Of a stretch of DNA of 64,000 bases, positions 1 to 52,995 are shown piece by piece. This stretch comes from Thermoplasmata archaeon. Its GTDB lineage: Archaea; Thermoplasmatota; Thermoplasmata; Lutacidiplasmatales; UBA184. The notes below the pieces were generated by a model, which was not told the DNA's origin, did not search any database, and saw only the letters and a list, made by a program, of their open reading frames with translations. The DNA is taken from NCBI GenBank assembly GCA_021796385.1, contig JAJYXQ010000023.1, positions 16,807 through 80,806 of the forward strand. The letters run 5' to 3'. How positions within the stretch are numbered: position 1 is the stretch's first letter; each line of letters opens with the position of its first letter. A program made the translations under genes and the position numbers.

Positions 1-186
1 GGCCCCGTTTCCGGAGGGGGCGGGACCCAAGGATCCCCGGGTCTGGTGAGGAAGGGCTCCTCGCAGGGGTTATCCGGTGTGGGGGCTATCGTTCACCGGA
101 GTACGATTCGTGAATGGTAACCTTTCACGGTTGAGCCCGGCGATGGCCCAGTCAAGCTGACCCATCGATTCCGACAAGTTCAGGGT

Positions 187-1641
187 TCACTTGGGGGCTG
201 GAGGACCCGGGCCAAACTGGAACGGGATCTCCCCCTTCAGCACTCGAGTCCCAAGCTCTCGGTAGGCGATCCCCTGTAGCTGTCCCGTCTGGATCACGCT
301 GGCCAGCAAGGCGGTGCGGTCCGCCCCCTTCTTCGTCCGGGATCCCCAGGACAGCTTCCGTTTCACGGCGATGTGAGGACGGAGTCCTTGCTCTGCGATG
401 TTGTTGTGAGCATCCACACCCATCTCCGCCCACCACCACAGCTCGTCCCAGTGCTTGCTCCCGTACTTTTGAAGGGTCAGGGCCACCGTGCCCTCACGCT
501 TCACTCCCAGCCATCGGCGGGCCCACGCCATCAACCGCTTGGCCTCCCGGGCCTTCTCTTCCCCGGTGGGCCACTTGGCCACCTCCAAGATCCGCCGGCA
601 CAGTTTCTCCATCGCTCGCAGACCGCGCCAGTCCGGGGCATCGGAGGGGCGTTCCCATCCCTCCTGCCCCTGCTTCGCCTTCCGTAGGAGGTGGACCCAG
701 CACCGTTGCTTCTTCCCGTGCACGGCGTTGAAGGCCACCCCTCCATCACAGTTCAACACCTGTCCCTTGGGTCGACGCTTCCCGAGGACTCCCTCGGGAA
801 CCTCGTGGCCTGCCGACTTGTCCACCCGGAAGAAGGCCGCCTTCACATCCGGGCTGATGAAGTCCCACAGGTTGTAGTTGACCCCGTCCACTCTCCATCC
901 GGTCCAGTCCGCATTGACCTGCTTGCCTTCCTTCAGCGCCCGCCGGATCGCCTCGTAGGCAGGGGCGAAGAGACGAGCCGACCTCGCCAGCATCTTGTCG
1001 ATCTCGCCCACGCTCACTTTCAGTCCGTAGTCCGAGCTGAGGAGATCCCTCAGCATCGAGGTGGTCAAGCCCTTCAGGGACCAGTAACCAACGAGGAAGT
1101 GCGTTCCCCACGAGAAGTTCGACTTCGGGGGAGCCACGTCGTGGGGGATGTGGGCTCTCCGGATCTTCTTGCATCCCCGGCATCGGTAGCGACCGATGCG
1201 CCACTTGGTGATGCGCACATGACCAGGGATGACGGACTCCACAGTGTGCTCGTCCCATTCGAAGGGGCCCTCCAAAGGCCCTCCGCAGTCGGGACAGGCG
1301 TTCAACTCCGCCTCCCGTGTCTCGTCGATTTGCTCGGGAGGTGGTCGATGGTGCGCCTCGTGCCCCTTCTTCGCACCACGCTTGTGTGAACTCTCCTCTC
1401 CCTCCTTCTTCACGTTGGGTTTGACCCAGGGAGGGGGAGGACTTCGCCTTCCCTCCTGGAGTTCGAGGAGATGGCGGAGTCGCTCGATCTCCTTGTCCTG
1501 CTCTTCGATGCGGTGCTGAAGGCGAGCCAGAAGCTCCTCGAGCTTCTTCTTGGAAATGATGAGGGTCTCCTCGGATGCCCCGTCTGCAAGAAGTCCGTCC
1601 ACCGCCGGAGAAACCATACTTCCGGCAATAGAGGAAGACAA
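187..1641 (-). CDS. IS66-family transposase (TnpC-like, single-ORF type); mobile element gene
   Basis: 484-aa ORF with an N-terminal leucine-zipper/coiled-coil (KKKLEELLARLQHRIEEQDKEIERLRHLLELQ), a CPDCGG zinc-finger motif and a conserved IS66 core (WVHLLRK, DETREAELN). Host-like high GC. No convincing TnpB-like orf2 upstream. Confidence 0.85.
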   Translation of the reverse strand: MSSSIAGSMVSPAVDGLLADGASEETLIISKKKLEELLARLQHRIEEQDKEIERLRHLLELQEGRRSPPPPWVKPNVKKEGEESSHKRGAKKGHEAHHRPPPEQIDETREAELNACPDCGGPLEGPFEWDEHTVESVIPGHVRITKWRIGRYRCRGCKKIRRAHIPHDVAPPKSNFSWGTHFLVGYWSLKGLTTSMLRDLLSSDYGLKVSVGEIDKMLARSARLFAPAYEAIRRALKEGKQVNADWTGWRVDGVNYNLWDFISPDVKAAFFRVDKSAGHEVPEGVLGKRRPKGQVLNCDGGVAFNAVHGKKQRCWVHLLRKAKQGQEGWERPSDAPDWRGLRAMEKLCRRILEVAKWPTGEEKAREAKRLMAWARRWLGVKREGTVALTLQKYGSKHWDELWWWAEMGVDAHNNIAEQGLRPHIAVKRKLSWGSRTKKGADRTALLASVIQTGQLQGIAYRELGTRVLKGEIPFQFGPGPPAPK

Positions 1642-1884
1642 TTCGCGCTTTAGACCTTTCGGTAGTAGCTCCGGTGTGAAAGTGGGAGTTCAACCGAAGG
1701 TAAAAACGCCTCGAGGGGCCCTACTGTGAAGGGTTACTCCACGGCATCCCAGATGACCAGAGGACACTCGACCAAATCCTGGGAGGGCGCCCAGAGATAC
1801 CGTCTGCGAAGGAGATAGCCTCTGAGAGCGAGTCCGAGCCCGGAGATTTCCCGGATTCGGGCGACGAGAAGGAGGACTAGGGTC

Positions 1885-3426
1885 GTGGGGTCTCTCAGTC
1901 TCACGCCCGCATTCTCTCAAAGGGCCTTTGTGTCTCCAGATCCTTTGCTGGTGTTTGGACGAGGGCAGAAGTCTGGGGATCAACGTATGGGGCTGGCACT
2001 TTACGGGCCAGCTCCACTTGTTGCGGGGCCGAGGGAAGACGCACCGATAGAACTCTCCGTGGGAATAGTCGGGACCGGGACATCCATCTCCAGCACAAAC
2101 GCATGGATGCGCTCCGTCAGCTCAGAAGTATACTGCCGTAGCAAGAAGGGTGTTACATCCTATTTTCCAGGTCTCAACGCGGACTCACCTCTTCGAACAA
2201 GCTTGCGAACTGACCCCAGAATCCAAATCATCTTGTCCACGTCTGAGGTGGCAGAGGCGGTCGCCCCGAAGGACTATGGCGAGCGTATTGACAAGGTCAC
2301 TGCTCTCTTCGCACGTTCCTTCAAAGCTCTGTCGAGCTCGGACCCTGCGCCTCAAGTGGTCCTCTGCCCACTTCCCGATCAGGTCATTGAGCGATGTGTC
2401 ACAGGGCTCGATCGGTTCGGGCGGTATCGTTCTCCCAAAAGATTGGCCCCACTGCCACGCGGACATCAGTCGAGCCTATATGACTTCCTCCCTGACATCG
2501 GTGGGATTGAGGCTGAGGCGGCCGCCGTGGACCACTACGGCAATCTTTGGAGGGCGTTGAAAATCGAAGCGATGAGGGTTGGGTTGCCGCTTCAGGTGAT
2601 ATGGTCGCGAACCTTGGAACAGGGAGTGGGGGTACAAAACTCCGCCGTCGTTGCATGGAATCTCTTCTCTGGACTTTATTACAAGGTGAAGGGGAGGCTC
2701 TGGCACCTTCCAGTGCAATCGACCACTACCTGCTACATCGGCCTTTCGTTCTACCATGAGAGGACGTCGGAGAACGACCGTCTCAACTGTAGCATGGCCC
2801 AAATCTTCTCCGATTCGGGTGATGGTTTGGTCTTCAGAGGAGGTGCTCTGGCCCGACGTTCCGAGATGGGGCTAACACCACGATTGGACGCGCACAGTGC
2901 AAAGTCCCTAGTGAGTCAATCACTCTCTCTCTACCACACTAGGATGCAGGGTGTTTATCCTGCCCGTGTGGTGGTTCACAAGAGCTCAAGGTTCTCACTG
3001 GAAGAACGGGAGGGTATCGAGTCAGCCATCACGGAGGCTGGAATCAAGCTGTTCGACATGGTTGCGATCGAGCCGGGAAGCACATACCAGTACTACCGGC
3101 TTGGAAGGTATCCCCCGCTGCGGGGGACCTCGATACGGATGCCGGATGGTCGGTGGTTAATCTACACAAGGGGGTACGTGCCCATCAACCACACGTATTC
3201 TGGGCCCGCGACTCCCTCGCCGCTCGCCGTGCTGGAGCATTTTGGGGAGTCCTCCACAGACCAAGTCCTCTCCGACATAATGGGGTTGACTCGCCTCAAC
3301 TGGAATAGTACCGACCACTCATGCCTACTTCCAGTGACCCTAGCTTCTTCCAAGAGGGTAGGAAGTGTCCTTTCGGAATACCGTGCCGAGGGCGAACCTG
3401 GCACACAGCTCAAGTTCTACATGTAG
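1885..3426 (+). CDS. PIWI-domain protein, short prokaryotic Argonaute-like (MID-PIWI), catalytically degenerate; possible true start near 2104 (MRSVSSEVY) where GC drops
   Basis: MID/PIWI junction motif NLWRALKIEAMRVGLPLQVIW (compare Ago NLxLKINxKLGG). PIWI strand motifs TCYIGLSFYH (in place of GxDVxH, D->S) and ARVVVHKSSRF (in place of HRDG). C-terminal LNWNSTDHSCLLPVTLASSKRVGSVL resembles the PIWI C-terminal PxxYYAxxAAxR region. Length 440-513 aa fits a short pAgo. Confidence 0.7.
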   Translation: MGSLSLTPAFSQRAFVSPDPLLVFGRGQKSGDQRMGLALYGPAPLVAGPREDAPIELSVGIVGTGTSISSTNAWMRSVSSEVYCRSKKGVTSYFPGLNADSPLRTSLRTDPRIQIILSTSEVAEAVAPKDYGERIDKVTALFARSFKALSSSDPAPQVVLCPLPDQVIERCVTGLDRFGRYRSPKRLAPLPRGHQSSLYDFLPDIGGIEAEAAAVDHYGNLWRALKIEAMRVGLPLQVIWSRTLEQGVGVQNSAVVAWNLFSGLYYKVKGRLWHLPVQSTTTCYIGLSFYHERTSENDRLNCSMAQIFSDSGDGLVFRGGALARRSEMGLTPRLDAHSAKSLVSQSLSLYHTRMQGVYPARVVVHKSSRFSLEEREGIESAITEAGIKLFDMVAIEPGSTYQYYRLGRYPPLRGTSIRMPDGRWLIYTRGYVPINHTYSGPATPSPLAVLEHFGESSTDQVLSDIMGLTRLNWNSTDHSCLLPVTLASSKRVGSVLSEYRAEGEPGTQLKFYM

Positions 3427-3479
3427 GTCACTTGAGAACGTTCGCAAAGCGATAAGTGCCCTGAGAAGTCACTCCCCCC

Positions 3480-5549
3480 ATGGCCAAGGGGGGAGGTAAA
3501 GTAACCTCAGAAGAAAACGGGACGATCGCGCCATTGGTCAAGCCACGGGGATCTGCGAGACTGGTTTGGAACTCTAAGCCTCACCGCGAGCCAAATCCGC
3601 GGGATCTTGAGTTCCAACCCGCGGAGGTAGTATTTCCTAATCGTGCCGCGGGTCAAACCGAGCTACTCTTACCTCGAACGTCAGAGGGTGAAGTGGATGA
3701 TAGTAAACTAAACCGTCTGATATGGGGAGACAATCTGCTTACCATGCAGGTGCTCTTGGCTCAAGGATTCGCGGGGAAATTTGAGCTCATCTACATCGAT
3801 CCCCCGTTCCTGAGTAACAGTGACTATTCCCACAACGTTTCTATAGCCGGAGTCAAAGACGTTAGACAGTCGCCTAGTATGATAGAAAGGCTTGCCTATC
3901 GCGACACTTGGAGTGGGGGTATCGACACCTACTTGGATTTTCTGTTCCCCAGACTGCAAACAATGCGGTCACTACTCAGTGACAATGGCACCATTTACAT
4001 CCACCTTGGACCGTCAGTTGCCCCATACGTCAGGGTGCTAACGGACGAAATCTTTGGAACTGCAAGGTTTCAGACCACGGTCATTTGGAAAAGAACTTCG
4101 GCTCACTCCGACACTCAGGGGTGGGGGAGAAATTATGACGAGATTCTCGTGTACTCTAAGGGAGACGCGCCAATCTGGAATCAAATGTATGGGGAGTACT
4201 CGGATGAGTACGTAAAATCGCATTACAACATGAAAGGTGAGGACGGGCGCCTCTTCATGCCAGACAACCTAACTGCGTCGGGTCTTAGTCACGGGAGCTC
4301 CGGGATGGCTTGGAAGGGTTTTGATCCTTCGACAAAGGGCTGTCACTGGAAATTTACTGTCGAGAAGCTTGACATACTTGACGCTCAGGGACGAATATAT
4401 TGGCCGCCGTCCGGGGGTTGGCCACGTTACAAGAGATATCTAGATGAAATGTCAGGGATACCGTTGCAAAGTATCTGGACAGATGTACCTCCAGTAAATA
4501 GCCAAGCAAGAGAAGATTCCGGATTTGACACCCAGAAACCACTCTCCTTACTGAAGAGGATTATCTCCGCGTCTTCAAACCCAGACGGTCTCGTTGGTGA
4601 CTTCTTCGCTGGTTCGGGCACCACCGCAGTTGCAGCAGAAACCCTAGGGCGAAGGTGGCTGTTGTGTGACCTTGGAAAGGTGGGAATCCAAGTTTCCAGG
4701 ACAAGACTCGTAGATATCGGTGCCAAGCCCTTTGTAATCGAGAACATCGGCAACTACCAACGGGAGTTGATATACAGAGAAGGAGGGAATATTGCGATGA
4801 TGCAACGCATTGTCATGAAACTTTACGGAGCAGAACCCCATCCAGCTCACACCGACATCGGGATTTTGGATGATGGTGGAAAGAGAATCCTTGTCTATGT
4901 CGGATACCCTGATCGTCCACTGACCGCGAAGAAGACCGCCGAGCTAGTCAAGATAGCACGGTCTCTCGACGGAGTCGGTTACGACAAGTTGGTACTACTC
5001 GCTTGGGACTATGAGTATAACTATGATGAGGGAATCGAGGTCCGCAGAAAGGGGTTTGGAGTCCAGGTTGAACCACGCCTCATTCCATCGAGTATCTATG
5101 ATTACTTGCGCAAGTCGAAGAACGAGGATGACTTGATCGAAAAGTTTGCTAAGAAGATTCAATTCGGCGCCAAGCCTTATCTCAAGGTCACGTCCCCCAA
5201 GGTTACCGATAGAGGCGGAGGTGAATACAACGTCGTAGTCGCCATCGAAAAGTATGTTCTCTCCGAGATTCCAGTTGAGAATGAAGACGACCGAATCGAG
5301 CTTCATAAGATATCGGCTGGAGATAGATTCGCCGTTCTCATTGACTACTGGGCTGTGGATTGGGACTACGACGGAAAAACTTTCCGCAGCAGATGGCAAG
5401 ACTTTCGATCGAACGAGAAGGGTGGCAGGTCAATCACCACTAGGGCGAATACAACGCTCACCGAGTCTAGGCGGTTCGACATTGCAGTCCGAGTAGTCGA
5501 CGTCTTCGGGAACGATGCTACCGCAACGACAAGTGTAGATCTGAGGTAA
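3480..5549 (+). CDS. mod: Type III-like DNA methyltransferase Mod subunit (beta-class N6A/N4C MTase) with about 290-aa C-terminal extension
   Basis: N-terminal LIWGDNLLTMQVLL followed by motif IV ELIYIDPPF, then motif I FFAGSGTTAVAAETLGRRWLLCDL about 260 aa later (IV...TRD...I order = beta class, typical of Type III Mod). Its stop lies 2 bp before the Res start. Confidence 0.85.
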   Translation: MAKGGGKVTSEENGTIAPLVKPRGSARLVWNSKPHREPNPRDLEFQPAEVVFPNRAAGQTELLLPRTSEGEVDDSKLNRLIWGDNLLTMQVLLAQGFAGKFELIYIDPPFLSNSDYSHNVSIAGVKDVRQSPSMIERLAYRDTWSGGIDTYLDFLFPRLQTMRSLLSDNGTIYIHLGPSVAPYVRVLTDEIFGTARFQTTVIWKRTSAHSDTQGWGRNYDEILVYSKGDAPIWNQMYGEYSDEYVKSHYNMKGEDGRLFMPDNLTASGLSHGSSGMAWKGFDPSTKGCHWKFTVEKLDILDAQGRIYWPPSGGWPRYKRYLDEMSGIPLQSIWTDVPPVNSQAREDSGFDTQKPLSLLKRIISASSNPDGLVGDFFAGSGTTAVAAETLGRRWLLCDLGKVGIQVSRTRLVDIGAKPFVIENIGNYQRELIYREGGNIAMMQRIVMKLYGAEPHPAHTDIGILDDGGKRILVYVGYPDRPLTAKKTAELVKIARSLDGVGYDKLVLLAWDYEYNYDEGIEVRRKGFGVQVEPRLIPSSIYDYLRKSKNEDDLIEKFAKKIQFGAKPYLKVTSPKVTDRGGGEYNVVVAIEKYVLSEIPVENEDDRIELHKISAGDRFAVLIDYWAVDWDYDGKTFRSRWQDFRSNEKGGRSITTRANTTLTESRRFDIAVRVVDVFGNDATATTSVDLR

Positions 5550-5550
5550 G

Positions 5551-8448
5551 TTGATGCCAAGGCAACGAAACCTCGAGGAGGAGGATATCACCCAACTCTT
5601 CCTCAGCAAGAAGCTCGCAGAGCTTGTTGACGATTGGGCGAGGGACGACTTGCCGATTGATCAACGCTGGCCAGGAACCACCCAGACCACTCACGAGCTA
5701 CTTCGGTACTGGTTCAACCGTGATGTGGATACCCCGAGTCGGTTCCACGACGCCCAACGGCGAGCGATTGAAACTCTGGTTTACTGTCACGAAGTCTTGA
5801 GAACAATCGATGGGAAGCCCATCGGGAAACTAGCTGATATCTATGAAAGGGTCGTCCCTGACAAGATTGACCAGTTCACCCATATTGCCACTGAAACTGC
5901 GGAAACTGACTACCAGAAATATTGCCTCAAGATGGCCACTGGGTCTGGGAAGACCTGGATTCTACAAGCCGCCCTCGTGTGGCAGTATTTCAATGCGGTT
6001 CGAGGAGAGGGGGCCCCTCGAAGGTTCTCGAAGCACTTTCTTGTGGTCACTCCTGGACTCGTGGTCCTATCGCGACTTCTCGATGCATTCCTAGGCAAGA
6101 AGGATGCTAGCGGAAATCGAGACCCCACCAAGGCCGACCTCCGTAACGACCTGTTCATTCCCCCAGAATGGCGGAAGGATTTCCATGTGCGTGTAATGAG
6201 TCCAGAGGATATCAATCCCTCTACCTCTGCTGGAGATGAAGCCTTTGTGCTGGTGCTCAACTGGCACAAGCTTGCGTCTAAGGATGGACGTGAGACGCTC
6301 GCTACGCAGATTTTCGGCCGAGATGAAGGAGACAACTCCGAGGTATACCTATCTTTCCTTTCTTCTTACCCAGACCTCGTGATCTTCAATGACGAGGCGC
6401 ATCATGTGCACAGCAAGGCGCGAAGTGAGGGGAGCAAGGACATCGATGCAAAGTGGTTAGAGGCCGTTAAGCGCCTCCGCGAACACAATCGCCGCCTCGG
6501 TAGCAGGGCGGGACTATTCTTGCAAGTTGACTTCTCGGCCACCCCATTCACGGGAACAGGCAATGCAAAGCGGTACTTTCCCCATATCGTCTTTGACTAC
6601 GATCTCAAAGACGCCATGAACGGCTGGTCTCCTGTCCAGAAGAAGGTGGTCCCGCTTCCCCTCGTAAAGCAGCTGTTCCTCGAAGAGAGGCAAACAACCA
6701 CAGCGGAACTGGCCACCCTTGACTTCAGAGCGATTCGAGAAGCCGCAGATGGCAAGAAGAGAGGGGCGGTGGCGGCTTTGAGCTCTGGACAACTCCTGAT
6801 GCTTGAGATTGGGCTCAAGAAATTGGATCAGATAGCCAAGGAGTTCGCACGATCAGGATTCTCGCAGAAGGCAGTCATGTTTGTCGCTTGCGAGGAGAAC
6901 GAGGTTGCCGACCTGGTCTACGATCACCTGAAATCCCGTTCGGACGACAGAGGGCGTCTTCTCAAAGACCAGATACTTGTGATTCACAGTGACGCCAAAG
7001 ACCGGATTGCAGAGGATGAGTGGAAGGAAAACCAGTTCCTCCTCGAATCGATCGATGACCCTGAGTCGGTGAACCCCAAACGCATCATCATCAGCGTCAT
7101 GATGCTCCGTGAGGGATTCGACGTTCGGAGCATCTGCGTCACCGTGGTCCTCCGGTCGAGTGAATCCGACATCCTCTTGGAACAGATGGTAGGGCGTGGA
7201 TTACGTCTGATGTTTACCGGCCCGGAGTTCTTTGAAACCAAGCTACATGCCCTTGAACAAGTTTCTCAGGGACAGACTCCTTCGGCGGCCCTCGACTTCC
7301 TGTTCGTGGTGGACCACCCCAGATTCCGACAGTTCTACGAGACTCTCAGGAACGAGGGATTCCCTATCTACTCAGGCGACAGTTCAGGAGTGAACACCAG
7401 CGGCGATCTCCAGCCTGTCAAAGTCGACCCAACGAGAGTCTCAACGTACGACGTGGGTTGGCCAATACAGTTCCACGATGAGGGAAGGATCCCAGACCCC
7501 CGTTTGATTGACCCCAAGACCTTACCGACCTTCGGCAAGACCTTCCCAGAAGTCAAAGCAGAATTCGATGCCATCCTGATTGCCGACAAGCACAAGGTCA
7601 CCGAAAACATTGTCTCGACTTGGGGCCTTCAGACAGAACTCTTCGATTACGGTTTCTTCCTTCGTCAGATAGCACTGAGGTTAACCACCGACGGAGGGGA
7701 CCGCACAACACTTTCTGCACGCCGTTCCGAGCTCATGGAACTCATCGACCGGTACACTAGTGACTATCTTTTCGGAGCGCCCGTAGATTTCACGCTCGCT
7801 GACAACTACCGTGTGCTGGTTCATGTCCCCATCTATGACTTCGTATCGCAACGACTTCGAATCGCACTGACGGACCTCCTCGGAAAAGTTGTCTTTGAGC
7901 CTCAATCCGAAGCGGTGTGGCAACGAGTATCTCGAGTGCCCGAGATTCTCACCCGCAGTAAAACCGCCGTCACCACAACCAAGTCGGTGTACCCCAAGCA
8001 AGCACCAGCGGCCAAAGGTGGGGGTTTCGAAGCCAAGTTTATGAGGGACGTCCTCGAGCGGAGTGGCAGTGTGCTTGCCTACGCCAAGCTCGATCAGAGA
8101 CACGATTTTCGTATCCGATACGTCAACGAGTACGGCATAGCTCGGGACTATTACCCTGACTTCTTAGTGAAGACCAAGGAGAAGATGTACCTTGTGGAGA
8201 CTAAGGCCAACAAGGACATGGGCACCGCAGTGGTGGCGAGGAAGGCGCGAGCCGCAACGGGGTGGTGCGAAGCGGCTAGCCGAATCAAGCCCCCTCCCGA
8301 GTTGAATCAGCCACAGGAGTGGGAGTACGTCCTCCTATCAGAGAGGACCTACGACCTCAACCGTGCAGTTGGGTTTGACGGACTCTTGGCCACTTGCAGG
8401 ACTGAGTTGCGTCATGTCCTGGCTTTTGGACAGGGCAGGTTGCAGTAA
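5551..8448 (+). CDS. res: Type III restriction enzyme Res subunit (SF2 DEAH helicase + C-terminal PD-(D/E)xK endonuclease)
   Basis: Walker A KMATGSGKTW, motif II VIFNDEAHHV, motif VI QMVGRGLRL. C-terminal nuclease motif YPDFLVKTKEKMYLVETK (PD...ExK). 965 aa matches the EcoP15I Res size class. Confidence 0.85.
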   Translation: MMPRQRNLEEEDITQLFLSKKLAELVDDWARDDLPIDQRWPGTTQTTHELLRYWFNRDVDTPSRFHDAQRRAIETLVYCHEVLRTIDGKPIGKLADIYERVVPDKIDQFTHIATETAETDYQKYCLKMATGSGKTWILQAALVWQYFNAVRGEGAPRRFSKHFLVVTPGLVVLSRLLDAFLGKKDASGNRDPTKADLRNDLFIPPEWRKDFHVRVMSPEDINPSTSAGDEAFVLVLNWHKLASKDGRETLATQIFGRDEGDNSEVYLSFLSSYPDLVIFNDEAHHVHSKARSEGSKDIDAKWLEAVKRLREHNRRLGSRAGLFLQVDFSATPFTGTGNAKRYFPHIVFDYDLKDAMNGWSPVQKKVVPLPLVKQLFLEERQTTTAELATLDFRAIREAADGKKRGAVAALSSGQLLMLEIGLKKLDQIAKEFARSGFSQKAVMFVACEENEVADLVYDHLKSRSDDRGRLLKDQILVIHSDAKDRIAEDEWKENQFLLESIDDPESVNPKRIIISVMMLREGFDVRSICVTVVLRSSESDILLEQMVGRGLRLMFTGPEFFETKLHALEQVSQGQTPSAALDFLFVVDHPRFRQFYETLRNEGFPIYSGDSSGVNTSGDLQPVKVDPTRVSTYDVGWPIQFHDEGRIPDPRLIDPKTLPTFGKTFPEVKAEFDAILIADKHKVTENIVSTWGLQTELFDYGFFLRQIALRLTTDGGDRTTLSARRSELMELIDRYTSDYLFGAPVDFTLADNYRVLVHVPIYDFVSQRLRIALTDLLGKVVFEPQSEAVWQRVSRVPEILTRSKTAVTTTKSVYPKQAPAAKGGGFEAKFMRDVLERSGSVLAYAKLDQRHDFRIRYVNEYGIARDYYPDFLVKTKEKMYLVETKANKDMGTAVVARKARAATGWCEAASRIKPPPELNQPQEWEYVLLSERTYDLNRAVGFDGLLATCRTELRHVLAFGQGRLQ

Positions 8449-8629
8449 CTATCAAGGTCTGTAGATACAATTCCTTGGGAATTTGACCTATGCCGAAGGT
8501 TGCATTCTTCAGCCATGTTTTCCAGGTGGCTCTTGACGATGCTTTCGCCTCGAGCTCGATTAACCAGCGAAGTTATTTACCCAAGTCCATCTCGAACGAG
8601 AGTTTCTCAGCCCGAGGGAGCGATGGTCT

Positions 8630-9982
8630 ATGACACAAACAATTGAAGAGTGCGTGAGGAAAGGTGTGGAAGAGGGGCTACTCAAGTTGGAGGACGGGGT
8701 CCTCACCTATGTTCAAGCCGACAAGTCCTACACGCTTACCGATGAGGAGCAGGTACGGGCAGCCCTCTTCGTCTACCTCGTTACGGAGAAATCAGTTGTT
8801 CCTAGGTCAGTCTCAATCGAACTCGATAAAGTGGATTTGCGTATCGTGAATGACGAGGGTGGAATCCAATCAATCTACGAATGCAAGGCTGAGTGTGGAG
8901 ACGAAGCCTCGGTTCAAGCGGCCATACAACAAGCTCGTGGATATGCGGCCACTCTAGGGGTCCGAGCCTTCTTCGTTGCCTTCAGCCAGGAGAATCACCT
9001 CAAGATTCGAACGGCTAGCATGGAGTTCCCCTCTCCCGTGGTACGTCCGGCCATTCCCTCGTTTCCAACGAAGATTATCTCAACAATCAACCTCAAAGGA
9101 GGGGTAGGGAAGACTTCCATTACGTGTGCTCTTGCTGAGTTTCTGACGATTGAACGACGCAAGCGAGTCCTTGTCATCGACCTTGATCCGCAGACCAACG
9201 CAACCGTTGTCCTAATGGGAGAAGAGCAGTGGCACACGACACGCGAGACAAGAGAACTCACCCTTGCCCATTACTTCAAACGGGTTCTGGAAGAGAAGTC
9301 ACCGTCGCCTTTCGACTTTGCCACGGCCCTTGTGAAGGATACGTCAAACATTGGTGGAGGGGTCAGAGGGCTTGACTTGATCCCCTCAAGTCCTCTCTTC
9401 ATTGAGATTCAGGATGATATCCCACGCATCACCACGAAGCGGTTCGGGGCAGTCTCGCATACAATGGTATTGGACAAAGCACTGCGCCCGCTCTTGAAGA
9501 AGAACCAGTACGACTACGTCCTGATCGATTGCCCTCCAAGTCTAGGGGCACTGACTTTAAACGGACTCTTCATGAGTCAGTTCTTTCTCGTGCCATGCAT
9601 CCCCGATTGGATTTCCACCTATGGAATCCCTCAGATTCTAAAGCAAGCGTACCGGTTCTCTAATGAGCACGACCGGCCTTTGAACTGCCTTGGAGTGGTT
9701 TTCTCACGGTACAAGAAGGTGAGCCGGCTCCACGAGACAACAGTACAAAGGTATCGTGCCCTTACTGGCAAGGGCATAGATAGTGAGCCGGAAGGGCCGG
9801 TCTTTCCTAAGGTATTCGACACAGTTATCAAGGATACGGGCAAGGCTGAGTCTGCTGTAGAGCCTGATCAGCCTGTGAACACTCTCAAGCAAAAATACGG
9901 TTACGGGACACCCTCCCTCTATGATCAGTACAACAACCTCTCCCTCGAGATGATGCAAGCGATAGATGCGTTTGGGGGGTAA
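8630..9982 (+). CDS. ParA/MinD(Soj)-family ATPase with about 150-aa N-terminal extension (possible PD-(D/E)xK-like fold)
   Basis: Deviant Walker A NLKGGVGKTSIT, A-prime VLVIDLDPQTNAT, Walker B YDYVLIDCPPSLG. The N-terminal 150 aa has a D...IYECK arrangement reminiscent of PD-(D/E)xK. Its own roughly 180-bp upstream region contains the palindrome ATTCCTTGGGAAT. Confidence 0.8.
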   Translation: MTQTIEECVRKGVEEGLLKLEDGVLTYVQADKSYTLTDEEQVRAALFVYLVTEKSVVPRSVSIELDKVDLRIVNDEGGIQSIYECKAECGDEASVQAAIQQARGYAATLGVRAFFVAFSQENHLKIRTASMEFPSPVVRPAIPSFPTKIISTINLKGGVGKTSITCALAEFLTIERRKRVLVIDLDPQTNATVVLMGEEQWHTTRETRELTLAHYFKRVLEEKSPSPFDFATALVKDTSNIGGGVRGLDLIPSSPLFIEIQDDIPRITTKRFGAVSHTMVLDKALRPLLKKNQYDYVLIDCPPSLGALTLNGLFMSQFFLVPCIPDWISTYGIPQILKQAYRFSNEHDRPLNCLGVVFSRYKKVSRLHETTVQRYRALTGKGIDSEPEGPVFPKVFDTVIKDTGKAESAVEPDQPVNTLKQKYGYGTPSLYDQYNNLSLEMMQAIDAFGG

Positions 9983-9991
9983 GCAGGAAAC

Positions 9992-10408
9992 ATGCCGCAC
10001 CAAGAGCATGGGTCACGCAAGTCTCCCCTGGCAAACCCAAGAGTCTCAAGCCGCGACCCCCAAGTGGTTGCGGCAGAGCTTCGAAAGCTGGCAACAAGGA
10101 TTGAGTCTGGTGACTTACGAGCACTCTCACGGGCGGTCCGCATTCTCAGGTCAAGCACCGTTCGACCGCAGCCCCGAAAGTTTCTCGGACCTGATTTGTT
10201 CAAGATCATCACTGAGGGAGGACACTTGGCTCTGGAACGGGAGATTGCGCCACTTTCATTAGAAGATCTTCGTGCTGTGGTTTCTTCCTACGGGTTGGAC
10301 TCACATGGGCGCGTTAGAAAGTGGAAGGACGTATCGAAGGTCAGGGAATTCGTGATTGCCAGACTGCTATCACACGCAGGTTCGGGTCAACGATTTCTAG
10401 AAGGATGA
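9992..10408 (+). CDS. small protein with SAP/HeH-like DNA-binding motif; possible centromere-binding (ParB/SegB-like) partner of the ParA-like gene
   Basis: 138-aa ORF 10 bp after parA-like, same strand and same low-GC composition. C-terminal LSLEDLRAVVSSYGLDSHGRVRKWKDVSKVREFVIARL fits the SAP motif pattern L..L.V.eLR..L...GL...G.K..Li.RL. Confidence 0.45.
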   Translation: MPHQEHGSRKSPLANPRVSSRDPQVVAAELRKLATRIESGDLRALSRAVRILRSSTVRPQPRKFLGPDLFKIITEGGHLALEREIAPLSLEDLRAVVSSYGLDSHGRVRKWKDVSKVREFVIARLLSHAGSGQRFLEG

Positions 10409-10728
10409 GTGTCCCTCTCCCTCAATCGCACGAGCCGTGGTAGCGGCAGGATTCTGGGACTCGGCAAGGAATTCTCCTCGACAAAGTTGGAATTGTGGAC
10501 TCCCGGGCCTGGATTCCGTGAGACTTACACCACAGGCGCCCGCTGAGATCCCTGAGTTCGACGTGAGAGGCTGATTTCACCCCGAAGGTGGCGTAGGCCT
10601 AACGAAGGGCTCCACGGTGTGGATGGAGGGAATGTTACACCGGAGTCGGCATCTCATCCAGCAACTTCAACCGGGAGACCAACTCTGCCTCCCCCAACCA
10701 TCTCCTCGAGCACCCATGCGGGCTAGGC

Positions 10729-10805
10729 CTATAGCGCGATTAGGTGTGCTTTCTTATCAGGTCTCACGCCGACAGGACACCCCAAACTCCCAACGGTGGA
10801 TCAAC
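10729..10805. repeat. about 75-bp repeat element, copy 1 (core GCGCGATTAGGTGTGCTTTCTTATCAGGTCTCACGCC)
   Basis: About 85% identical over roughly 75 bp to 14669-14745, including the exact run ATCAGGTCTCACGCCG. Non-coding context. Confidence 0.6.
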
Positions 10806-11112
10806 GCATTTCATGGCTTCATGATTTGCCCATGTTGCTTGACATTGGGTTCCCGCGTTCATGGGACTCCCCCAGCAGCGAATGTCGCAATGCCATGCCA
10901 AGGGCACGATTTACCATCATGGAATCGGACCACCAGCGATTCCGACACGGAAAACGATTCAACTCTTCAACCGCGGGGGGACCCGGGAGCAATGATAGTC
11001 GTTAGACGATTCAGCAGTTAATCGCGCATAAGGCCAGAACCATTCTGACAGCCGGGGAGTTCACGTCCTGGTCTCCCCGCCGTTGGTTCGGGGAGAACGG
11101 AGTGAAGATGGT

Positions 11113-11334
11113 TTAGGCACTGAGTTCAGGGCTAACCAACGTGAAGTGGAACTTCTCGAGAGGGTGTGCCTCGATTCTTTTCGAAGCGTCCAATATTTCG
11201 ATGGACACAATCTTCCTTCCCCTCCCGTAATCAATGACCAGTCCGTCCTCGGTCTCAACACTCTCCACGATCTTTCGGTTCTTGAGGAACTGGATGTTCA
11301 TCAGGTCGTGCTTTGCGTCGTACTCAATCTCCAT
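11113..11334 (-). CDS. DUF2283-family protein (antitoxin-like partner of DUF4258)
   Basis: 73 aa, MEIEYDAKHDLMNIQF...IVSIEILDASKRI, characteristic DUF2283 pattern. Lies 4 bp downstream of the DUF4258 gene. Confidence 0.7.
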   Translation of the reverse strand: MEIEYDAKHDLMNIQFLKNRKIVESVETEDGLVIDYGRGRKIVSIEILDASKRIEAHPLEKFHFTLVSPELSA

Positions 11335-11338
11335 GGTC

Positions 11339-11602
11339 TTACTTCCGATACCTCGTTACCTGTGATGTCAGATAGGCCGTCACGACTACATAATCCTTGT
11401 TCACACGTTCGTAGACGACACGTAGCATCATCCTCTTGCGGTTGACCACGTAGACTCTCTGCGCAACAAGCCGCCCTCCATAGCCGGGGACGGTCTCGTC
11501 CGGGGAACTGAGGGTCTCCTCCACCCACCTTCCCGGTATTCCTCGAAGACCCATCTTTCGGATGGCGAGCGGGATAATAATGATGGCTGGCATTACTTCC
11601 AC
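11339..11602 (-). CDS. DUF4258-family protein (RelE/ParE-fold toxin-like)
   Basis: 87 aa. C-terminal VYVVNRKRMMLRVVYERVNKDYVVVTAYL is typical of DUF4258. Paired with DUF2283. Confidence 0.7.
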   Translation of the reverse strand: MEVMPAIIIIPLAIRKMGLRGIPGRWVEETLSSPDETVPGYGGRLVAQRVYVVNRKRMMLRVVYERVNKDYVVVTAYLTSQVTRYRK

Positions 11603-11643
11603 CCTAACGACTCCCGCACATTAACCCTACATGAACCCTCGGT

Positions 11644-11826
11644 TCAGGCCCCCTTCCTCTGCTTCTTCGCCTTCAGCCCCAGGCGAAGAAGATAGTGGAC
11701 ATGGTCGCTTAGCGGCCGGATCTCCCTCTCGGCCTGGTCGCGGATCTCCCGCTCCAGCTCCTCGGGCAGGTAGACGGTCACCTTGACCTTTCCTTGGCTC
11801 GGCCGCCCTGGATGGCCCCCGGTCAT
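11644..11826 (-). CDS. ribbon-helix-helix (CopG/Arc-like) small DNA-binding protein, copy 1
   Basis: 60 aa: KVKVTVYLPEELEREIRDQAEREIRPLSDHVHYLLRLGL. TATA-like GGGGTATATAAGC about 25 nt upstream of the ATG on the coding strand. About 85% aa identity to 22843-23040. Confidence 0.7.
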   Translation of the reverse strand: MTGGHPGRPSQGKVKVTVYLPEELEREIRDQAEREIRPLSDHVHYLLRLGLKAKKQRKGA

Positions 11827-12023
11827 GGGGGGATCATGGGGTCTGGGGTATATAAGCTGTTGTAATAGATTACTAATGACGTATTACCGTTGTTATATGT
11901 CACGCACGGTTGGGAAGGACACCGTAGGTGTCCTAAGCGCGGCAGCAAGGGCCCCTCTCGAGTTATACGTCATGGGGAACCCTTCCCCCAGACTTGGTCT
12001 TGGTCGCTCATGCTTGTGGGCCC

Positions 12024-12206
12024 TCAACTCACACGGGCAGCCTGATCGCAGATCGGGAAGTAGGAGCATCTGCGACATTTCGGAACGGATGGGAGAGCGT
12101 CACCACTGTAAGGCTTCTGGAACTTGGCCACCCAGTCGGACAATTCCTGCCGAGCACGGCCGTCCCACGCAATCTTCCGAGGGATCAGGTCGCTGTAGAT
12201 CATCAA
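12024..12206 (-). pseudogene. C-terminal fragment of a Cas4/RecB-like PD-(D/E)xK nuclease (DUF83-type Cys cluster)
   Basis: Ends ...SVPKCRRCSYFPICDQ = C-x2-C-x-YF-x-I-C, the characteristic Cas4 C-terminal Fe-S cysteine motif. The upstream in-frame region is low-complexity, with no full-length N-terminal RecB motifs and no start codon. Confidence 0.45.
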
Positions 12207-12614
12207 CCCGTAGGGTGGAGCCGCTCCGTAGCGGTCCTCAACGATGACAGTAAGCGTAGAGCTGGAGGACGTGGGAGAAGTAAGGTGGACGCCCGGGCGC
12301 GGGCCCCCGGGACGACTTCACCTCGACGGGGACGACCCTTCCATCTGGGGCTCTCCGCAGCTCGTCGGGACGGCCCACGAGGCCGTGGACCTAGCTGGAC
12401 ATGGTGACCACCCTGCCGACCGTGGCCGAAGTCACGGACCCATCCACAGCTACCACCGGCCCGGGGAGAGCCTTCGGCGACAATGCCCGGTGGATGGCCC
12501 ATATGATGATGAGGACCAGGGTGAGGATGATCAGGGCTGGAAAAAGTGGAGCCACCATTGCACTGACCACGGGCAGCGCCCACCCCCCTCACTCCGGGCC
12601 AGCCGGGGGAAGCG

Positions 12615-13034
12615 CTAAGGCTGGCTCGGCAAGTGGCGTCGGGCCCAAGTAAGTATCCTCTCCGCCTGCGTTACCAGCCGTGCGGCTTCACTATGTTCGA
12701 CCTCCCGGTCCTCGTACTCGATGAGGTTCTTGAGGTGCAAGACGCTCCGGATTTGGCGGACCTTCTCCTCGCCTCCTTCTAGTCGGAGTCCCCTAACCAA
12801 CTCGGCCACCTCCTCATGCCCTTCGGCCGCGGACCGGATACCCTGATGGAAGGAAGTGAGGGAGTCGCACGTTGAGATCACAGCGTGGATGGCCGCCAGC
12901 CCGGCCCCGTTGGCATTGCCAGAGCCAAGGGCAAGAGAGGCAAGCCTGGCAAAGTCTGTGGCCTTGCGCAAGTACGTGCGATAGGCTCCTTGGGAGGCAT
13001 CCCTAGTTCGACCACTAGGTCTGGGCGGCGTCAT
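12615..13034 (-). CDS. HEPN-domain protein (partner of MNT nucleotidyltransferase)
   Basis: Start MTPPRPSG overlaps the MNT stop (ATGA). Rx5H-type motif IRSAAEGHEE in an all-alpha context. The longer 263-aa track ORF start is likely spurious. Confidence 0.65.
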   Translation of the reverse strand: MTPPRPSGRTRDASQGAYRTYLRKATDFARLASLALGSGNANGAGLAAIHAVISTCDSLTSFHQGIRSAAEGHEEVAELVRGLRLEGGEEKVRQIRSVLHLKNLIEYEDREVEHSEAARLVTQAERILTWARRHLPSQP

Positions 13035-13615
13035 TTGACAATCCACCCCTCGGTCTGGATGTTCCTCAGGAGAGACTGATTGCGGGGGGTGCGGACCTCG
13101 TCCTTGGTATAGGTCAATGTCGAGAGGGGATTCCCGTAGCGTTGGAAGACCTTGGATTCCAGCTTCTCCAGATCGGGTTGAATTCTTTCCTTGTCCCGAT
13201 CCCGGTCCACTTCGATGAGCAGGTCGATGTCGCTCCGGCTGCTCTCCTGACCCTTCGTGACGGAACCATACACCACTGCGCGGAGAATCTTGGGCGATAA
13301 CAGGCCGGCTCGTAACGTCTCCAGCAGATCCTCCCTCAAGGAGTCCTCCTTTCGGAATACTTCCCGGACGACAGGGACAAGGACGTGCTCTGCCTCCAGC
13401 CTCCACAGGACAGCCCGACCCGCCCGATGCATGTGTGCGATCCCCGCGCGCTCAAGGTCCTTGAGGGCCCCGATCGCCTGGGGTGCGGAGGACCCCGATA
13501 GCCGGGCCACCTCCCGGCCTGTGGATTCGCGCGTGGGAAATCGGCAAAGGACCCGGAGCACCTTCACTCGGGAGGATGAGGCGAAGAGTTCGTCCATCGG
13601 GTGCTGGAATCGCAT
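13031..13615 (-). CDS. minimal nucleotidyltransferase (MNT) with N-terminal winged-helix domain
   Basis: YGSVTKGQESSRSDIDLLIEV = GSx9-10 DxD nucleotidyltransferase motif. N-terminal HTH (RVLCRFPTRESTGREVARL). Confidence 0.8.
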   Translation of the reverse strand: MRFQHPMDELFASSSRVKVLRVLCRFPTRESTGREVARLSGSSAPQAIGALKDLERAGIAHMHRAGRAVLWRLEAEHVLVPVVREVFRKEDSLREDLLETLRAGLLSPKILRAVVYGSVTKGQESSRSDIDLLIEVDRDRDKERIQPDLEKLESKVFQRYGNPLSTLTYTKDEVRTPRNQSLLRNIQTEGWIVK

Positions 13616-18598: not shown

Positions 18599-18750
18599 CG
18601 CAGGCTTGGAGTCATCCGTACTTGGACACCGGAGAGATTCTCGGGGAGAACCCTGTAGTTGTCGCACACCAGTCGCAGGCCCGACTCCGTCGCTTTCAGT
18701 TGGGTTGCCGGTTCAACCGCTCCAGCACCATCTCGCAGGCCGAGGGGATA

Positions 18751-18768
18751 CAACGCGGGTTATACATC
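18751..18768 (+). promoter_or_regulatory. shared 18-mer CAACGCGGGTTATACATC, copy 2 (about 90 bp upstream of 18855 gene)
   Basis: Exact match to 14921-14938. Confidence 0.35.
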
Positions 18769-18854
18769 GTTGGCGTTTGCCAATGTGAGGTGGGCAAAAT
18801 CGAAACGGCGGATAGCGAGAGGGACCGACCGATCTTGGAAGGGGGATTGATCCC

Positions 18855-21272: not shown

Positions 21273-21387
21273 GGGCTCGTTAGGGACTATGGCGACCAAC
21301 CGACTTCAGGATGATGGGGCAGCCCGACCCCTCTTCTAAAAAGTGAGACAGCGGACTTTCGCGCCTTTTGTGAGCCCTCCACCCATC

Positions 21388-52984: not shown

Positions 52985-52995
52985 GGGGACCGGAC

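What the first reader, a model, noticed from the sequence alone, without database searches (positions are those of the whole stretch)
1885..8448. Candidate undescribed defence module: a catalytically dead PIWI (short pAgo-like) gene in one operon-like array with a Type III-like Mod methyltransferase and Res helicase-nuclease
Three co-oriented genes sit in a discrete lower-GC island. The gap is 54 bp between PIWI and mod, and the mod stop lies 2 bp before the res start. Short/inactive pAgos normally act with a partner effector encoded next to them (Sir2, TIR, Mrr, DREN or HNH fused to APAZ). Here no APAZ-effector is visible, and the only neighbouring nuclease is the PD-(D/E)xK domain of a DEAH-helicase Res subunit. 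A dedicated beta-class MTase would provide self-marking. Guide-directed recognition (PIWI/MID) coupled to an ATP-dependent translocase-nuclease with methylation-based self protection has not, to my knowledge, been characterised. The alternative is that a standard Type III R-M system and an orphan pAgo are merely co-resident in a defence island.
Basis: partly seen in the sequence, partly recalled or inferred. Interest (0 to 1): 0.85.

Follow-up and report, generated by a model that had tools for sequence, protein, structure and literature searches.

The report
Orphaned short Argonaute beside Type III restriction system
A short Argonaute defence gene lost its normal nuclease partner to a transposon insertion and sits beside an ordinary, self-sufficient Type III-like restriction-modification pair; the two are recurrent neighbours in related archaeal defence islands, not a new fused system.

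Summary
The three genes are real and correctly identified. They are a 513-aa short pAgo with a dead PIWI, a beta-class Mod, and an SF2-helicase/PD-(D/E)xK Res, in a low-GC island.

The claim that no APAZ effector exists is wrong. Window 1738-1880 holds the last ~47 codons of a nuclease-APAZ gene. An IS66-family element (117-1737) cut that gene off. In 70 of 71 homologous loci an APAZ partner abuts the pAgo.

Mod-Res is autonomous. It has all catalytic motifs, probably its own promoter, and no APAZ-like domain. 158 of 159 more distant Res-family loci and 5 of 9 close relatives lack any pAgo.

One observation remains interesting. The closest Res relatives (77-92% identical) each carry a different short-pAgo cassette (31-34% identical; REase, TIR or unknown effector) directly upstream of Mod. 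In L085 and L087 the flanks around that cassette are conserved. Three distant lineages show similar adjacency.

Verdict: a decayed SPARDA-like system next to an ordinary Type III-like R-M in an integrative archaeal defence island. Adjacency is recurrent but facultative, and functional synergy is untested.

The parts
117..1737 (-). IS66-family insertion sequence, 1,621 bp, single-ORF type. Transposase at 187-1641(-), 484 aa. 27-nt terminal inverted repeats at 117-143 and 1711-1737 (GTAAC...GTTAC). No 8-bp target duplication.
   Evidence: Pfam DDE_Tnp_IS66 1.5e-21 and zf-IS66. NCBIfam transpos_IS66 4.8e-52. Inverted repeat I2. The flanks differ and window 1-116 matches nothing. Assemblies of the identical locus break in or at this element.
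1738..1880 (+). 3' remnant (about 47 codons plus TAG stop at 1878-1880) of the nuclease-APAZ partner gene of the pAgo. It starts exactly at the IS66 right end and stops 4 nt before the pAgo start, the same spacing as in the intact homologue L001.
   Evidence: tblastn against the L001 partner, residues 446/448-483: 68-69% identity, E=2e-9. Against the L004 partner: E=8e-5. Frame translation HGIPDDQRTLDQILGGRPEIPSAKEIASE.... The L001 and L004 partners match PADLOC Aga_REase_Archaea plus PNTD1-PNTD2 (APAZ).
1885..3426 (+). Short prokaryotic Argonaute (MID-PIWI only), 513 aa, GTG start with a GGAGG Shine-Dalgarno-like site at 1871-1875. The catalytic tetrad is replaced (S288/P332/S367/K490). The MID 5'-end pocket and the C-terminal FYM are conserved. 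It is now without its partner.
   Evidence: PADLOC pAgo_I 1e-119. PDB short pAgos 9om4_B 1e-68 and 9jsb_A 2e-57. hhalign against TtAgo. 258 homologues, closest 78% and 55% identical. The identical protein is on 9 other contigs, all with the same IS junction.
3427..3479 (+). pAgo-Mod intergenic region with a conserved BRE/TATA-like box (CGCAAAGCGATAAGTG, about 3443-3458) centred about 26 nt before the Mod ATG. It is a candidate archaeal promoter for a leaderless mod-res transcript.
   Evidence: The box is conserved in the window, L085 and L087. L088 has CTATATATCC at the same distance. Nucleotide homology to L085 and L087 begins here, at 3415 and 3443. Promoter function is inferred, not shown.
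3480..5549 (+). Mod: beta-class N6A/N4C DNA methyltransferase, 689 aa. Motif IV is DPPF (107-110) and motif I is FAGSG (376-380). The target-recognition region between them is variable (about residues 111-416, nt 3812-4727).
   Evidence: PF01555 1e-36. PADLOC MTase_II/MTase_III. Motifs and sliding identity: 21-53% in the centre, above 85% in the C-terminal half. Nucleotide homology gap at 3812-4727.
5551..8448 (+). Res: Type III-like restriction subunit, 965 aa (964 if it starts at ATG 5554). SF2 helicase with Walker A 131-135, DEAH 281-284 and motif VI 545-552, plus a C-terminal PD-(D/E)xK nuclease (D870, E883, K885).
   Evidence: PF04851 2.8e-12 and TnsA-like endonuclease 1.4e-5. PADLOC REase_III 9e-24. 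NCBIfam BPTD_3080 family at 197 bits, below its cut-off. Invariant columns in the family alignment. Motifs. More than 2,700 homologues.
8449..12045 (.). A 3.6-kb stretch absent from the sister islands L085 and L087. It contains a ParA/AAA_31-type ATPase with an N-terminal extension (8630-9982), a 138-aa ORF (9992-10408) and small ORFs. It is part of the low-GC island but not of either defence system.
   Evidence: blastn synteny break. Pfam AAA_31 2.5e-33. Gene calls on the identical contig L181.
12036..12492 (-). Pseudogene of the Cas4-like PD-(D/E)xK protein that directly follows Res in L085 and L087. It has an in-frame stop and a frameshift.
   Evidence: tblastn of the L085 178-aa protein: 86% and 70% identity in two frames, with an internal stop. 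76% nucleotide identity to L085 9401-9921.

Best explanation
The locus is a decaying, horizontally acquired defence island in an uncultured archaeon, probably Thermoplasmata. It holds two separate systems side by side.

(1) A SPARDA-like short-Argonaute system. In intact relatives an upstream gene encodes a PD-(D/E)xK-type nuclease fused to APAZ, and this protein pairs with the inactive MID-PIWI protein. By analogy with solved SPARDA, SPARHA and SPARTA systems, guide-directed recognition of invader nucleic acid by the pair would switch on the effector. In the window an IS66-family element, plus an adjacent deletion or rearrangement, removed all but the last ~47 codons of the effector gene. The pAgo is therefore an orphan and the system is most likely non-functional.

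(2) A complete Type III-like restriction-modification pair, probably driven by its own promoter. Mod methylates its recognition site. A Mod-Res complex uses the ATP-dependent helicase motor and the C-terminal PD-(D/E)xK nuclease to cut unmodified DNA.

The two systems are neighbours because this island family has a conserved scaffold: integrase, then a short-pAgo cassette, then mod-res, then a Cas4-like gene. The pAgo cassette is exchanged by recombination in the flanks. The systems do not share parts.

Shown: gene identities, the APAZ remnant, the IS boundaries, synteny and its limits, motif integrity, and the absence of APAZ in Mod and Res. Inferred: loss of pAgo function, the Mod promoter, the R-M mechanism, and the recombination route.
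For: - Partner remnant at 1738-1880 (E=2e-9), abutting the IS66 inverted repeat.
- The closest pAgo homologues, L001 (78%) and L004 (55%), have an intact ~495-aa REase-APAZ gene 4 nt upstream or overlapping, and no Mod/Res.
- 70 of 71 upstream partners across the family carry APAZ.
- The dead tetrad and the retained MID pocket are as in all short pAgos.
- Mod and Res have all catalytic motifs and no APAZ-like region (hhalign probability 0.15%).
- Mod-Res occurs without pAgo in 80 of 80 metagenome loci, 78 of 79 provirus loci, and 5 of 9 close relatives: L173, L177, L091, L178, L179.
- Seen from the pAgo side, Mod/Res in 2 of 80 loci is no more frequent than Type I methylases (11 loci), HsdS/HsdR (3-4), GmrSD (4) or BrxL (3).
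- A conserved TATA-like box lies about 26 nt before the Mod ATG.
- The L085/L087 flanks are 79-86% identical at the nucleotide level around a non-homologous ~3-kb cassette.
- Integrases and other defence genes are present in all linked loci.
- There is further decay in the window: the Cas4-like pseudogene.
- The island is low in GC.
Against: - The juxtaposition is not a one-off. Four related Mod-Res modules (Res 77-92% identical) carry four different short-pAgo cassettes (31-34% identical), always directly upstream and co-oriented.
- L051, L022 and L191 repeat the adjacency with distant Mod-Res and pAgo lineages. A purely accidental neighbourhood would not obviously refill the same slot with pAgo cassettes each time.
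- The pAgo ORF is still intact, and the IS-disrupted allele is the only one seen across several samples, so residual function cannot be excluded.
- No transcript data exist, and no T-tract terminator separates pAgo from Mod, so co-transcription is possible.
Confidence: 0.74

Rival explanations
1. Short-pAgo systems (APAZ-effector plus pAgo) and this Type III-like Mod-Res form a co-selected four-gene composite. The two layers cooperate without sharing subunits. For example, Res cleavage and unwinding of unmethylated invader DNA could supply ends or single-stranded DNA that favour guide loading or target recognition by the pAgo complex, which would then trigger its abortive effector as a second line of defence. 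The window would be a broken copy of that composite.
For: - The array APAZ-pAgo-Mod-Res is co-oriented and tightly spaced in the window (remnant), L085, L087, L088 and L051. L022 has Mod-Res-APAZ-pAgo and L191 has Mod-Res-pAgo.
- The pAgo cassette is swapped while the flanks and the adjacency are kept.
- Conversely, L085 and L051 share 50%-identical pAgos next to Res proteins that are only about 29% identical.
- The nearest pAgo relatives of L051, L022 and the window lack Mod/Res, so the juxtapositions arose more than once.
- Ryazansky et al. 2018 list type III restriction endonucleases and a SAM methyltransferase among proteins in pAgo operons (PMC6299218).
Against: - The linkage is facultative in both directions: 2 of 80 from the pAgo side; 0 of 80, 1 of 79 and 4 of 9 from the Res side.
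- Its frequency beside pAgo is similar to that of Type I, Type IV and BREX genes.
- Mod-Res appears to have its own promoter.
- All linked loci are integrase-bearing islands, where unrelated systems cluster anyway.
- The numbers are small, and three of the close cases share one island backbone.
Confidence: 0.2
2. One reading: the MID-PIWI protein works without APAZ and directs the Res helicase-nuclease to guide-matched DNA. Mod provides self-protection. Together they form a new three-gene system.
For: The three genes are co-oriented with short gaps. The pAgo ORF is intact and the disrupted allele persists in several samples. Res is the only intact nuclease next to it.
Against: - An APAZ-effector remnant cut by IS66 sits directly upstream.
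- All other short-pAgo loci with Mod/Res retain an APAZ effector.
- There is no APAZ-like domain in Mod or Res.
- The closest pAgo relatives lack Mod/Res, and five close Res relatives lack pAgo.
- From my own knowledge of the published SPARTA, SPARDA, SPARSA and SPARHA complexes (papers found), APAZ is an integral part of the nucleic-acid-binding heterodimer in every solved short-pAgo complex.
Confidence: 0.03
3. The orphan pAgo has been kept for a partner-independent role, such as sequestering small nucleic acids or acting with an APAZ protein encoded elsewhere in the genome.
For: The ORF is intact with a conserved MID pocket and C-terminus. An SD-like site is retained. The allele is fixed in all sampled contigs.
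Against: No other APAZ or pAgo gene is found in the 64-kb window. The native promoter region was lost with the partner gene. The neighbouring Cas4-like gene is already a pseudogene, which points to general decay. The rest of the 180-kb contig and the genome could not be examined.
Confidence: 0.03

Closest known systems
SPARDA (short pAgo plus DREN/DUF4365 nuclease-APAZ) and SPARHA (short pAgo plus HNH-APAZ) systems
   Same: The pAgo is MID-PIWI only and lacks the catalytic tetrad. Its best solved relatives are the SPARHA (9om4_B, 1e-68) and NbaSPARDA (9jsb_A, 2e-57) Argonautes. The partner in intact homologues is a nuclease-APAZ fusion encoded immediately upstream. Its APAZ part matches 9om4_A and the DUF4365-APAZ chains 9qbl_A, 9qbp_A and 9qbq_A.
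   Different: The effector domain is PADLOC 'Aga_REase_Archaea', a PD-(D/E)xK-like type with no Pfam DUF4365 or HNH match. In the window the partner gene is reduced to a 47-codon stub, so the system is incomplete.
SPARTA (short pAgo plus TIR-APAZ)
   Same: The sister island L088 carries a TIR-APAZ plus short pAgo pair in the same slot upstream of a 77%-identical Res. SPARTA Argonautes are the next-best solved hits for the window's pAgo (8qlo_B, 8fex_B; E=1e-36 to 1e-39).
   Different: The window's lineage used a nuclease effector, not a TIR effector. The pAgos are only 34% identical.
Type III restriction-modification systems (EcoP15I/EcoP1I type)
   Same: The gene order is mod then res, abutting. 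Mod is beta-class with a central variable target-recognition region. Res has an N-terminal SF2 DEAH helicase and a C-terminal PD-(D/E)xK nuclease.
   Different: Both fall far below the NCBIfam equivalog cut-offs: PRK15483 type III endonuclease at 28 bits against 564, and the BPTD_3080 family at 197 against 800. They therefore belong to a distinct, large, mostly uncharacterised subfamily. Mod has a C-terminal extension of about 270 aa. No biochemistry is available.
Defence-island hotspots with exchangeable cargo between conserved flanks
   Same: L085 and L087 share an integrase flank (86% nucleotide identity) and a mod-res flank (79-84%) around a non-homologous ~3-kb cassette.
   Different: Here all the exchanged cassettes seen (three in the closest clade, a fourth in L088) are short-pAgo systems, not unrelated defence systems. 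No att-like repeats were found at the borders.
pAgo operon associations catalogued by Ryazansky et al. 2018 (PMC6299218)
   Same: That survey lists type III restriction endonucleases (og_21, og_34) and a SAM-dependent methyltransferase (og_13) among proteins in pAgo operons.
   Different: It reports no functional analysis, no cassette-swap pattern, and no statement about whether APAZ effectors are retained in those operons.

Membership tests
Short prokaryotic Argonaute (short pAgo) | MID and PIWI domains only (about 450-520 aa), no N or PAZ domains | tested here: met
   513 aa. End-to-end match to PADLOC pAgo_I (455-position model, E=1e-119). Residues 13-512 align end-to-end to the 485-507-aa solved short pAgos 9jsb_A, 8qlo_B and 8fex_B.
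Short prokaryotic Argonaute (short pAgo) | Catalytic DEDX tetrad of PIWI absent | tested here: met
   hhalign against TtAgo (96.5% probability): D478, E512, D546 and D660 align with S288 (or Y290), P332, S367 and K490. The TtAgo residue numbers come from my own knowledge.
Short prokaryotic Argonaute (short pAgo) | MID 5'-end binding pocket and conserved C-terminus retained | tested here: met
   K226, Q237 and K267 are invariant in the family and align with TtAgo K422, Q433 and K457. The C-terminal FYM is conserved.
Short prokaryotic Argonaute (short pAgo) | APAZ-domain partner encoded in the same operon or fused | tested here: not met
   Only a 47-codon 3' remnant survives at 1738-1880, cut by IS66. 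There is no other APAZ gene in the window. The feature is met in 70 of 71 homologous loci. The window's system is therefore an incomplete, degraded member.
SPARDA | Effector is a DREN (DUF4365) nuclease fused to APAZ | tested here: not met
   The partner of the closest intact homologues has no Pfam DUF4365 hit. Its N-terminus matches PADLOC Aga_REase_Archaea (2e-24). Only the APAZ part matches the DUF4365-APAZ chains. It probably works like SPARDA but is not a DREN-type member.
SPARDA | Guide-dependent activation of collateral nuclease activity, with filament formation | not testable with these tools
   This requires biochemistry. In any case the effector is missing from the window.
Type III restriction-modification | Adjacent mod then res genes | tested here: met
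   Mod 3480-5549; Res 5551 or 5554 to 8448. The same order is seen across the roughly 150 related loci where both genes were detected.
Type III restriction-modification | Mod is a beta-class methyltransferase (motif IV, then target-recognition region, then motif I) | tested here: met
   DPPF at 107-110 and FAGSG at 376-380. The region between them is hypervariable among relatives. PF01555.
Type III restriction-modification | Res has SF2 helicase motifs plus a C-terminal PD-(D/E)xK endonuclease | tested here: met
   GSGKT 131-135, DEAH 281-284, QxxGRxxR 545-552, and PD870...E883-x-K885, all invariant in alignment A3. PF04851 and a TnsA-like endonuclease hit.
Type III restriction-modification | Membership of a curated Type III endonuclease equivalog | tested here: not met
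   NCBIfam PRK15483 scores 27.9 bits against a cut-off of 564. BPTD_3080 scores 197 against 800. PADLOC REase_III gives partial hits only. Hence 'Type III-like'.
Type III restriction-modification | ATP-dependent cleavage needing two inversely oriented unmethylated sites; hemimethylation by Mod | not testable with these tools
   This requires biochemistry or methylome data.
   Remnant plus IS66. All other short-pAgo loci with Mod/Res carry an APAZ gene.
   The synteny recurs but is not obligate. From the pAgo side it is seen in 2 of 80 loci. From the Res side it is seen in 0 of 80, 1 of 79, and 4 of 9 close relatives.

The most novel reading that the evidence does not exclude
Short-Argonaute abortive-infection modules and a particular lineage of Type III-like restriction-modification systems are kept together by selection as a two-layer composite. 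The pAgo cassette (effector plus Argonaute) is repeatedly exchanged for very divergent alleles between conserved integrase and mod-res flanks. This would imply functional cooperation, for example restriction products feeding pAgo target or guide recognition, and diversifying selection on the pAgo layer. The window would be a degraded copy of such a composite.
Probability: 0.2. Interest if true: 0.65.

Novelty: new member of a known kind. Interest (0 to 1): 0.36.

Why it matters
For this locus, the result removes a tempting false lead. The missing effector is explained by a transposon insertion, not by a new Argonaute architecture. It also shows how an insertion sequence can make a standard two-gene system look like a new operon.

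The wider pattern could matter. Closely related Type III-like R-M modules carry very different short-pAgo cassettes in the same slot, and distant lineages repeat the adjacency. If that reflects selection, it would be a natural case of layered immunity: restriction first, Argonaute-triggered abortive response second. It would also show allele-like exchange of whole pAgo systems. Intact four-gene islands (L085, L087, L088, L051) are available for testing pAgo-restriction synergy, which has been catalogued (Ryazansky 2018) but, as far as my literature searches show, never examined.

Tried and rejected
- **Seeing beyond the window start.** The genome-contig scan did not contain the source genome. 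P0001 is not on record. All nine contigs carrying the identical pAgo stop in or at the IS66. The left flank (1-116) matches nothing. The fate of the 5' part of the APAZ gene is therefore unknown.
- **A cryptic APAZ in Mod or Res.** None was found.
- **An integron-like or site-specific mechanism for the cassette swap.** No repeats were found at the cassette borders.
- **Another IS66 copy, APAZ gene or pAgo gene in the window.** None was found.
- **Pfam and NCBIfam on the pAgo.** No hits, because their Piwi models are too distant. PADLOC and PDB were needed.
- **Rfam on the window.** Only one tRNA, so it did not help with taxonomy.
- **Pfam on distal window genes.** No lineage marker was found. 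Lineage was inferred from named homologues of one enzyme.
- **Neighbour-joining tree of all pAgos.** The script timed out, so BLAST nearest neighbours were used instead.
- **Contexts of the other intermediate Res relatives** (P0125, P0128-P0131, P0133-P0137).
Full report
**Observation.** The three co-oriented ORFs are present as described: 1885-3426 (513 aa), 3480-5549 (689 aa) and 5551-8448 (965 aa).

The first ORF has no Pfam or NCBIfam hit. It does match the PADLOC short-Argonaute model pAgo_I end to end (E=1e-119). Its best solved relatives are the Argonaute chains of SPARHA (9om4_B, E=1e-68) and NbaSPARDA (9jsb_A), followed by SPARTA.

A profile alignment to the catalytically active TtAgo, fetched from pTT27, puts S288 (or Y290), P332, S367 and K490 at the positions of D478, E512, D546 and D660. 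The MID pocket residues K226, Q237 and K267 are conserved. 'Catalytically dead short pAgo' is therefore correct.

Mod has motif IV (DPPF, 107-110) before motif I (FAGSG, 376-380), which is the beta-class order. Res has Walker A, DEAH, motif VI and a C-terminal PD...ExK motif. All of these are invariant in the family alignment.

The island 1738-12045 has 53.8% GC against 62.8% for the rest of the window. The pAgo-Mod gap is 53 nt. Res probably starts at ATG 5554.

**The missing effector.** Directly upstream lies an IS66-family element at 117-1737. Its transposase is at 187-1641 on the minus strand, and its 27-nt terminal inverted repeats are at 117-143 and 1711-1737.

The two closest pAgo homologues are P0002 (78% identity, L001) and P0003 (55%, L004). 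Each has a ~495-aa gene abutting the pAgo start. PADLOC identifies this gene as an archaeal restriction-endonuclease-like domain fused to PNTD1-PNTD2, which is APAZ.

tblastn of those partners against the window gives a single hit at 1734/1740-1847. It has 68-69% identity to the last residues of the L001 partner (E=2e-9). It lies in the frame that ends with TAG at 1878-1880, 4 nt before the pAgo GTG. This is exactly the spacing seen in L001.

The remnant begins at the IS66 right end. The 8-bp flanks of the IS differ, and window 1-116 resembles nothing. The insertion was therefore accompanied by an adjacent deletion or rearrangement.

The identical pAgo protein is on nine further metagenome contigs. 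All are 100% identical to the window, and those extending upstream run into the same IS junction. The disrupted allele is thus the only one observed.

Across 80 family loci from GTDB genomes plus L001 and L004, 70 of 71 upstream neighbours carry APAZ. The pAgo is a member of an obligately two-component family that has lost its partner gene.

**Is Mod-Res a partner or a neighbour?** Neither Mod nor Res has an APAZ-like region (hhalign probability 0.15%).

The Res family is large, with more than 2,700 hits and hundreds of full-length relatives at 43-46% identity.

- Of 80 Res-family loci from metagenomes (24-43% identity), nearly all have the Mod-then-Res pair and none has a pAgo or APAZ gene. 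Thirty of them have at least 3.5 kb on the Mod side, and 46 on either side.
- Of 79 loci in the viral/provirus collection, one (L191) has a pAgo.
- From the pAgo side, only L051 and L022 of the 80 loci carry full-length homologues of this Mod and Res.
- That frequency is comparable with other restriction and defence genes beside the same pAgos: Type I/IIG-type methylases in 11 loci, HsdS/HsdR in 3-4, GmrSD in 4 and BrxL in 3.
- A conserved BRE/TATA-like box is centred about 26 nt before the Mod ATG in the window, L085 and L087, and L088 has TATATAT at the same distance. This suggests an own promoter and a leaderless transcript. That fits an archaeal host, because all named homologues of a window housekeeping enzyme are archaeal and the best are Thermoplasmata.

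These points support an autonomous Type III-like R-M.

**The recurrent adjacency.** The closest Res relatives tell a less trivial story.

| Locus | Res identity to window | Gene order |
|---|---|---|
| L085 | 92% | integrase, APAZ protein, short pAgo, Mod, Res |
| L087 | 89-90% | integrase, APAZ protein, short pAgo, Mod, Res |
| L088 | 77-78% | TIR-APAZ, pAgo, Mod, Res |

The four pAgos (window, L085, L087, L088) are only 31-34% identical to one another. Their effectors differ: REase_Archaea type in L087 and in the window's lineage, TIR in L088, and unknown in L085. Mod, by contrast, is 64-70% identical and Res 77-92%.

At the nucleotide level L085 and L087 share the integrase flank (86%) and the flank from mod onward (79-84%). 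Homology ends at the integrase stop codon and resumes at the pAgo stop codon. The window shares the right flank with L085 from position 3415, and with L087 from 3443. It also shares the Cas4-like gene that follows Res. In the window that gene is a pseudogene, displaced by a 3.6-kb insertion.

No att-like repeats mark the cassette borders. Exchange by homologous recombination in the flanks is therefore the simplest reading.

The linkage is patchy. Res relatives at 78% (L173, on 18 contigs), 71%, 64%, 61% and 59% identity have Mod-Res without pAgo, in unrelated contexts.

Other cases outside the close clade:
- L051 (Micrarchaeota) has APAZ-pAgo-Mod-Res, and L022 (Limnocylindria) has Mod-Res-APAZ-pAgo. 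Their Res proteins are only 27-29% identical to the window's. Their nearest pAgo relatives (62-67% identity) lack Mod/Res.
- L191 places a longer-class 732-aa pAgo after Mod-Res.
- L050 has a different Type III R-M in convergent orientation.

The adjacency has therefore arisen several times, always with each system's own components complete.

Ryazansky et al. (2018, PMC6299218) already list type III restriction endonucleases and a SAM methyltransferase among proteins in pAgo operons, without functional analysis. A full-text search found no paper that mentions short pAgo or APAZ together with type III restriction.

**Interpretation.** The best-supported account (about 0.74) is two independent systems in a decaying integrative island. 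One is a SPARDA-like short-pAgo system inactivated by IS66. The other is an intact, self-sufficient Type III-like R-M.

A real but unproven possibility (about 0.2) is that short-pAgo modules and this R-M lineage are co-selected as a layered composite. That would explain why the slot upstream of mod is refilled with pAgo cassettes.

**Novelty and score.** The locus itself is a degraded new member of known kinds. The cassette-swap and recurrent-adjacency pattern is a modestly interesting lead that intact sister islands would make testable.

Noticed in passing
window 12036-12492 (-): The Cas4-like PD-(D/E)xK gene that is intact (178 aa) right after Res in L085 and L087 is a pseudogene here, with an in-frame stop and a frameshift. 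This is a second sign of decay in the island.
   Followed up: yes
window 8449-12045: A 3.6-kb stretch absent from the sister islands. It holds a ParA/AAA_31 ATPase with a 145-aa N-terminal extension (8630-9982), a 138-aa ORF (9992-10408), and small ORFs that include a DUF2283-like one. Its function and origin are unknown.
   Followed up: partly
L085:865-4285 versus L087:4848-7845: A whole [APAZ-effector + short pAgo] cassette is exchanged between flanks that are 79-86% identical at the nucleotide level (integrase on the left, mod-res on the right). The breakpoints fall at the integrase and pAgo stop codons, and there are no att-like repeats.
   Followed up: yes
L191:4750-11907: An IMG/VR contig carries Mod, Res (42% identical to the window's) and then a co-oriented 732-aa pAgo of a longer class (PADLOC PprPIWI, 5e-67), with no APAZ gene. 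This is a different kind of pAgo next to the same R-M family.
   Followed up: partly
window 3812-4727 (Mod residues ~111-416): The central region of Mod is hypervariable among otherwise 85-95% identical relatives (21-53% identity). It is presumably the target-recognition domain, so the sister islands probably methylate different sites.
   Followed up: partly
window 1885-1986: The public gene call for this pAgo (P0001, 479 aa) starts 34 codons too late. The family's conserved N-terminal motif (residues 19-24) and the homologues' full-length alignment support the GTG at 1885.
   Followed up: yes
window 12615-13615 (-): A nucleotidyltransferase-domain protein (13031-13615, PF01909/PF18765) overlaps a 263-aa ORF (12615-13406). 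This may be an MNT/HEPN-type toxin-antitoxin pair at the island edge.
   Followed up: no
window 26265-26363 (+): ARAGORN calls a 99-nt tRNA-Ser(CGA). Rfam's tRNA model does not report it at the gathering threshold. It may be an intron-containing archaeal tRNA or a false call.
   Followed up: no
window 30535-33507 (-): A 990-aa STAND-like protein (AAA_16 ATPase, TPR repeats and a C-terminal HTH). This architecture is often linked to signalling or defence.
   Followed up: no
window 15332-25571 and 50324-55612: Several large YNCE/NHL beta-propeller and PKD-domain proteins, probably surface proteins. Similar PKD proteins flank the Mod-Res of L173 and L174.
   Followed up: no
L050:4397-8328 and L034:5906-6658: Two of the pAgos nearest to L085's also sit by Type III-related genes. 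L050 has a different Type III Mod+Res pair in convergent orientation. L034 has a 250-aa fragment of a Res C-terminus.
   Followed up: partly
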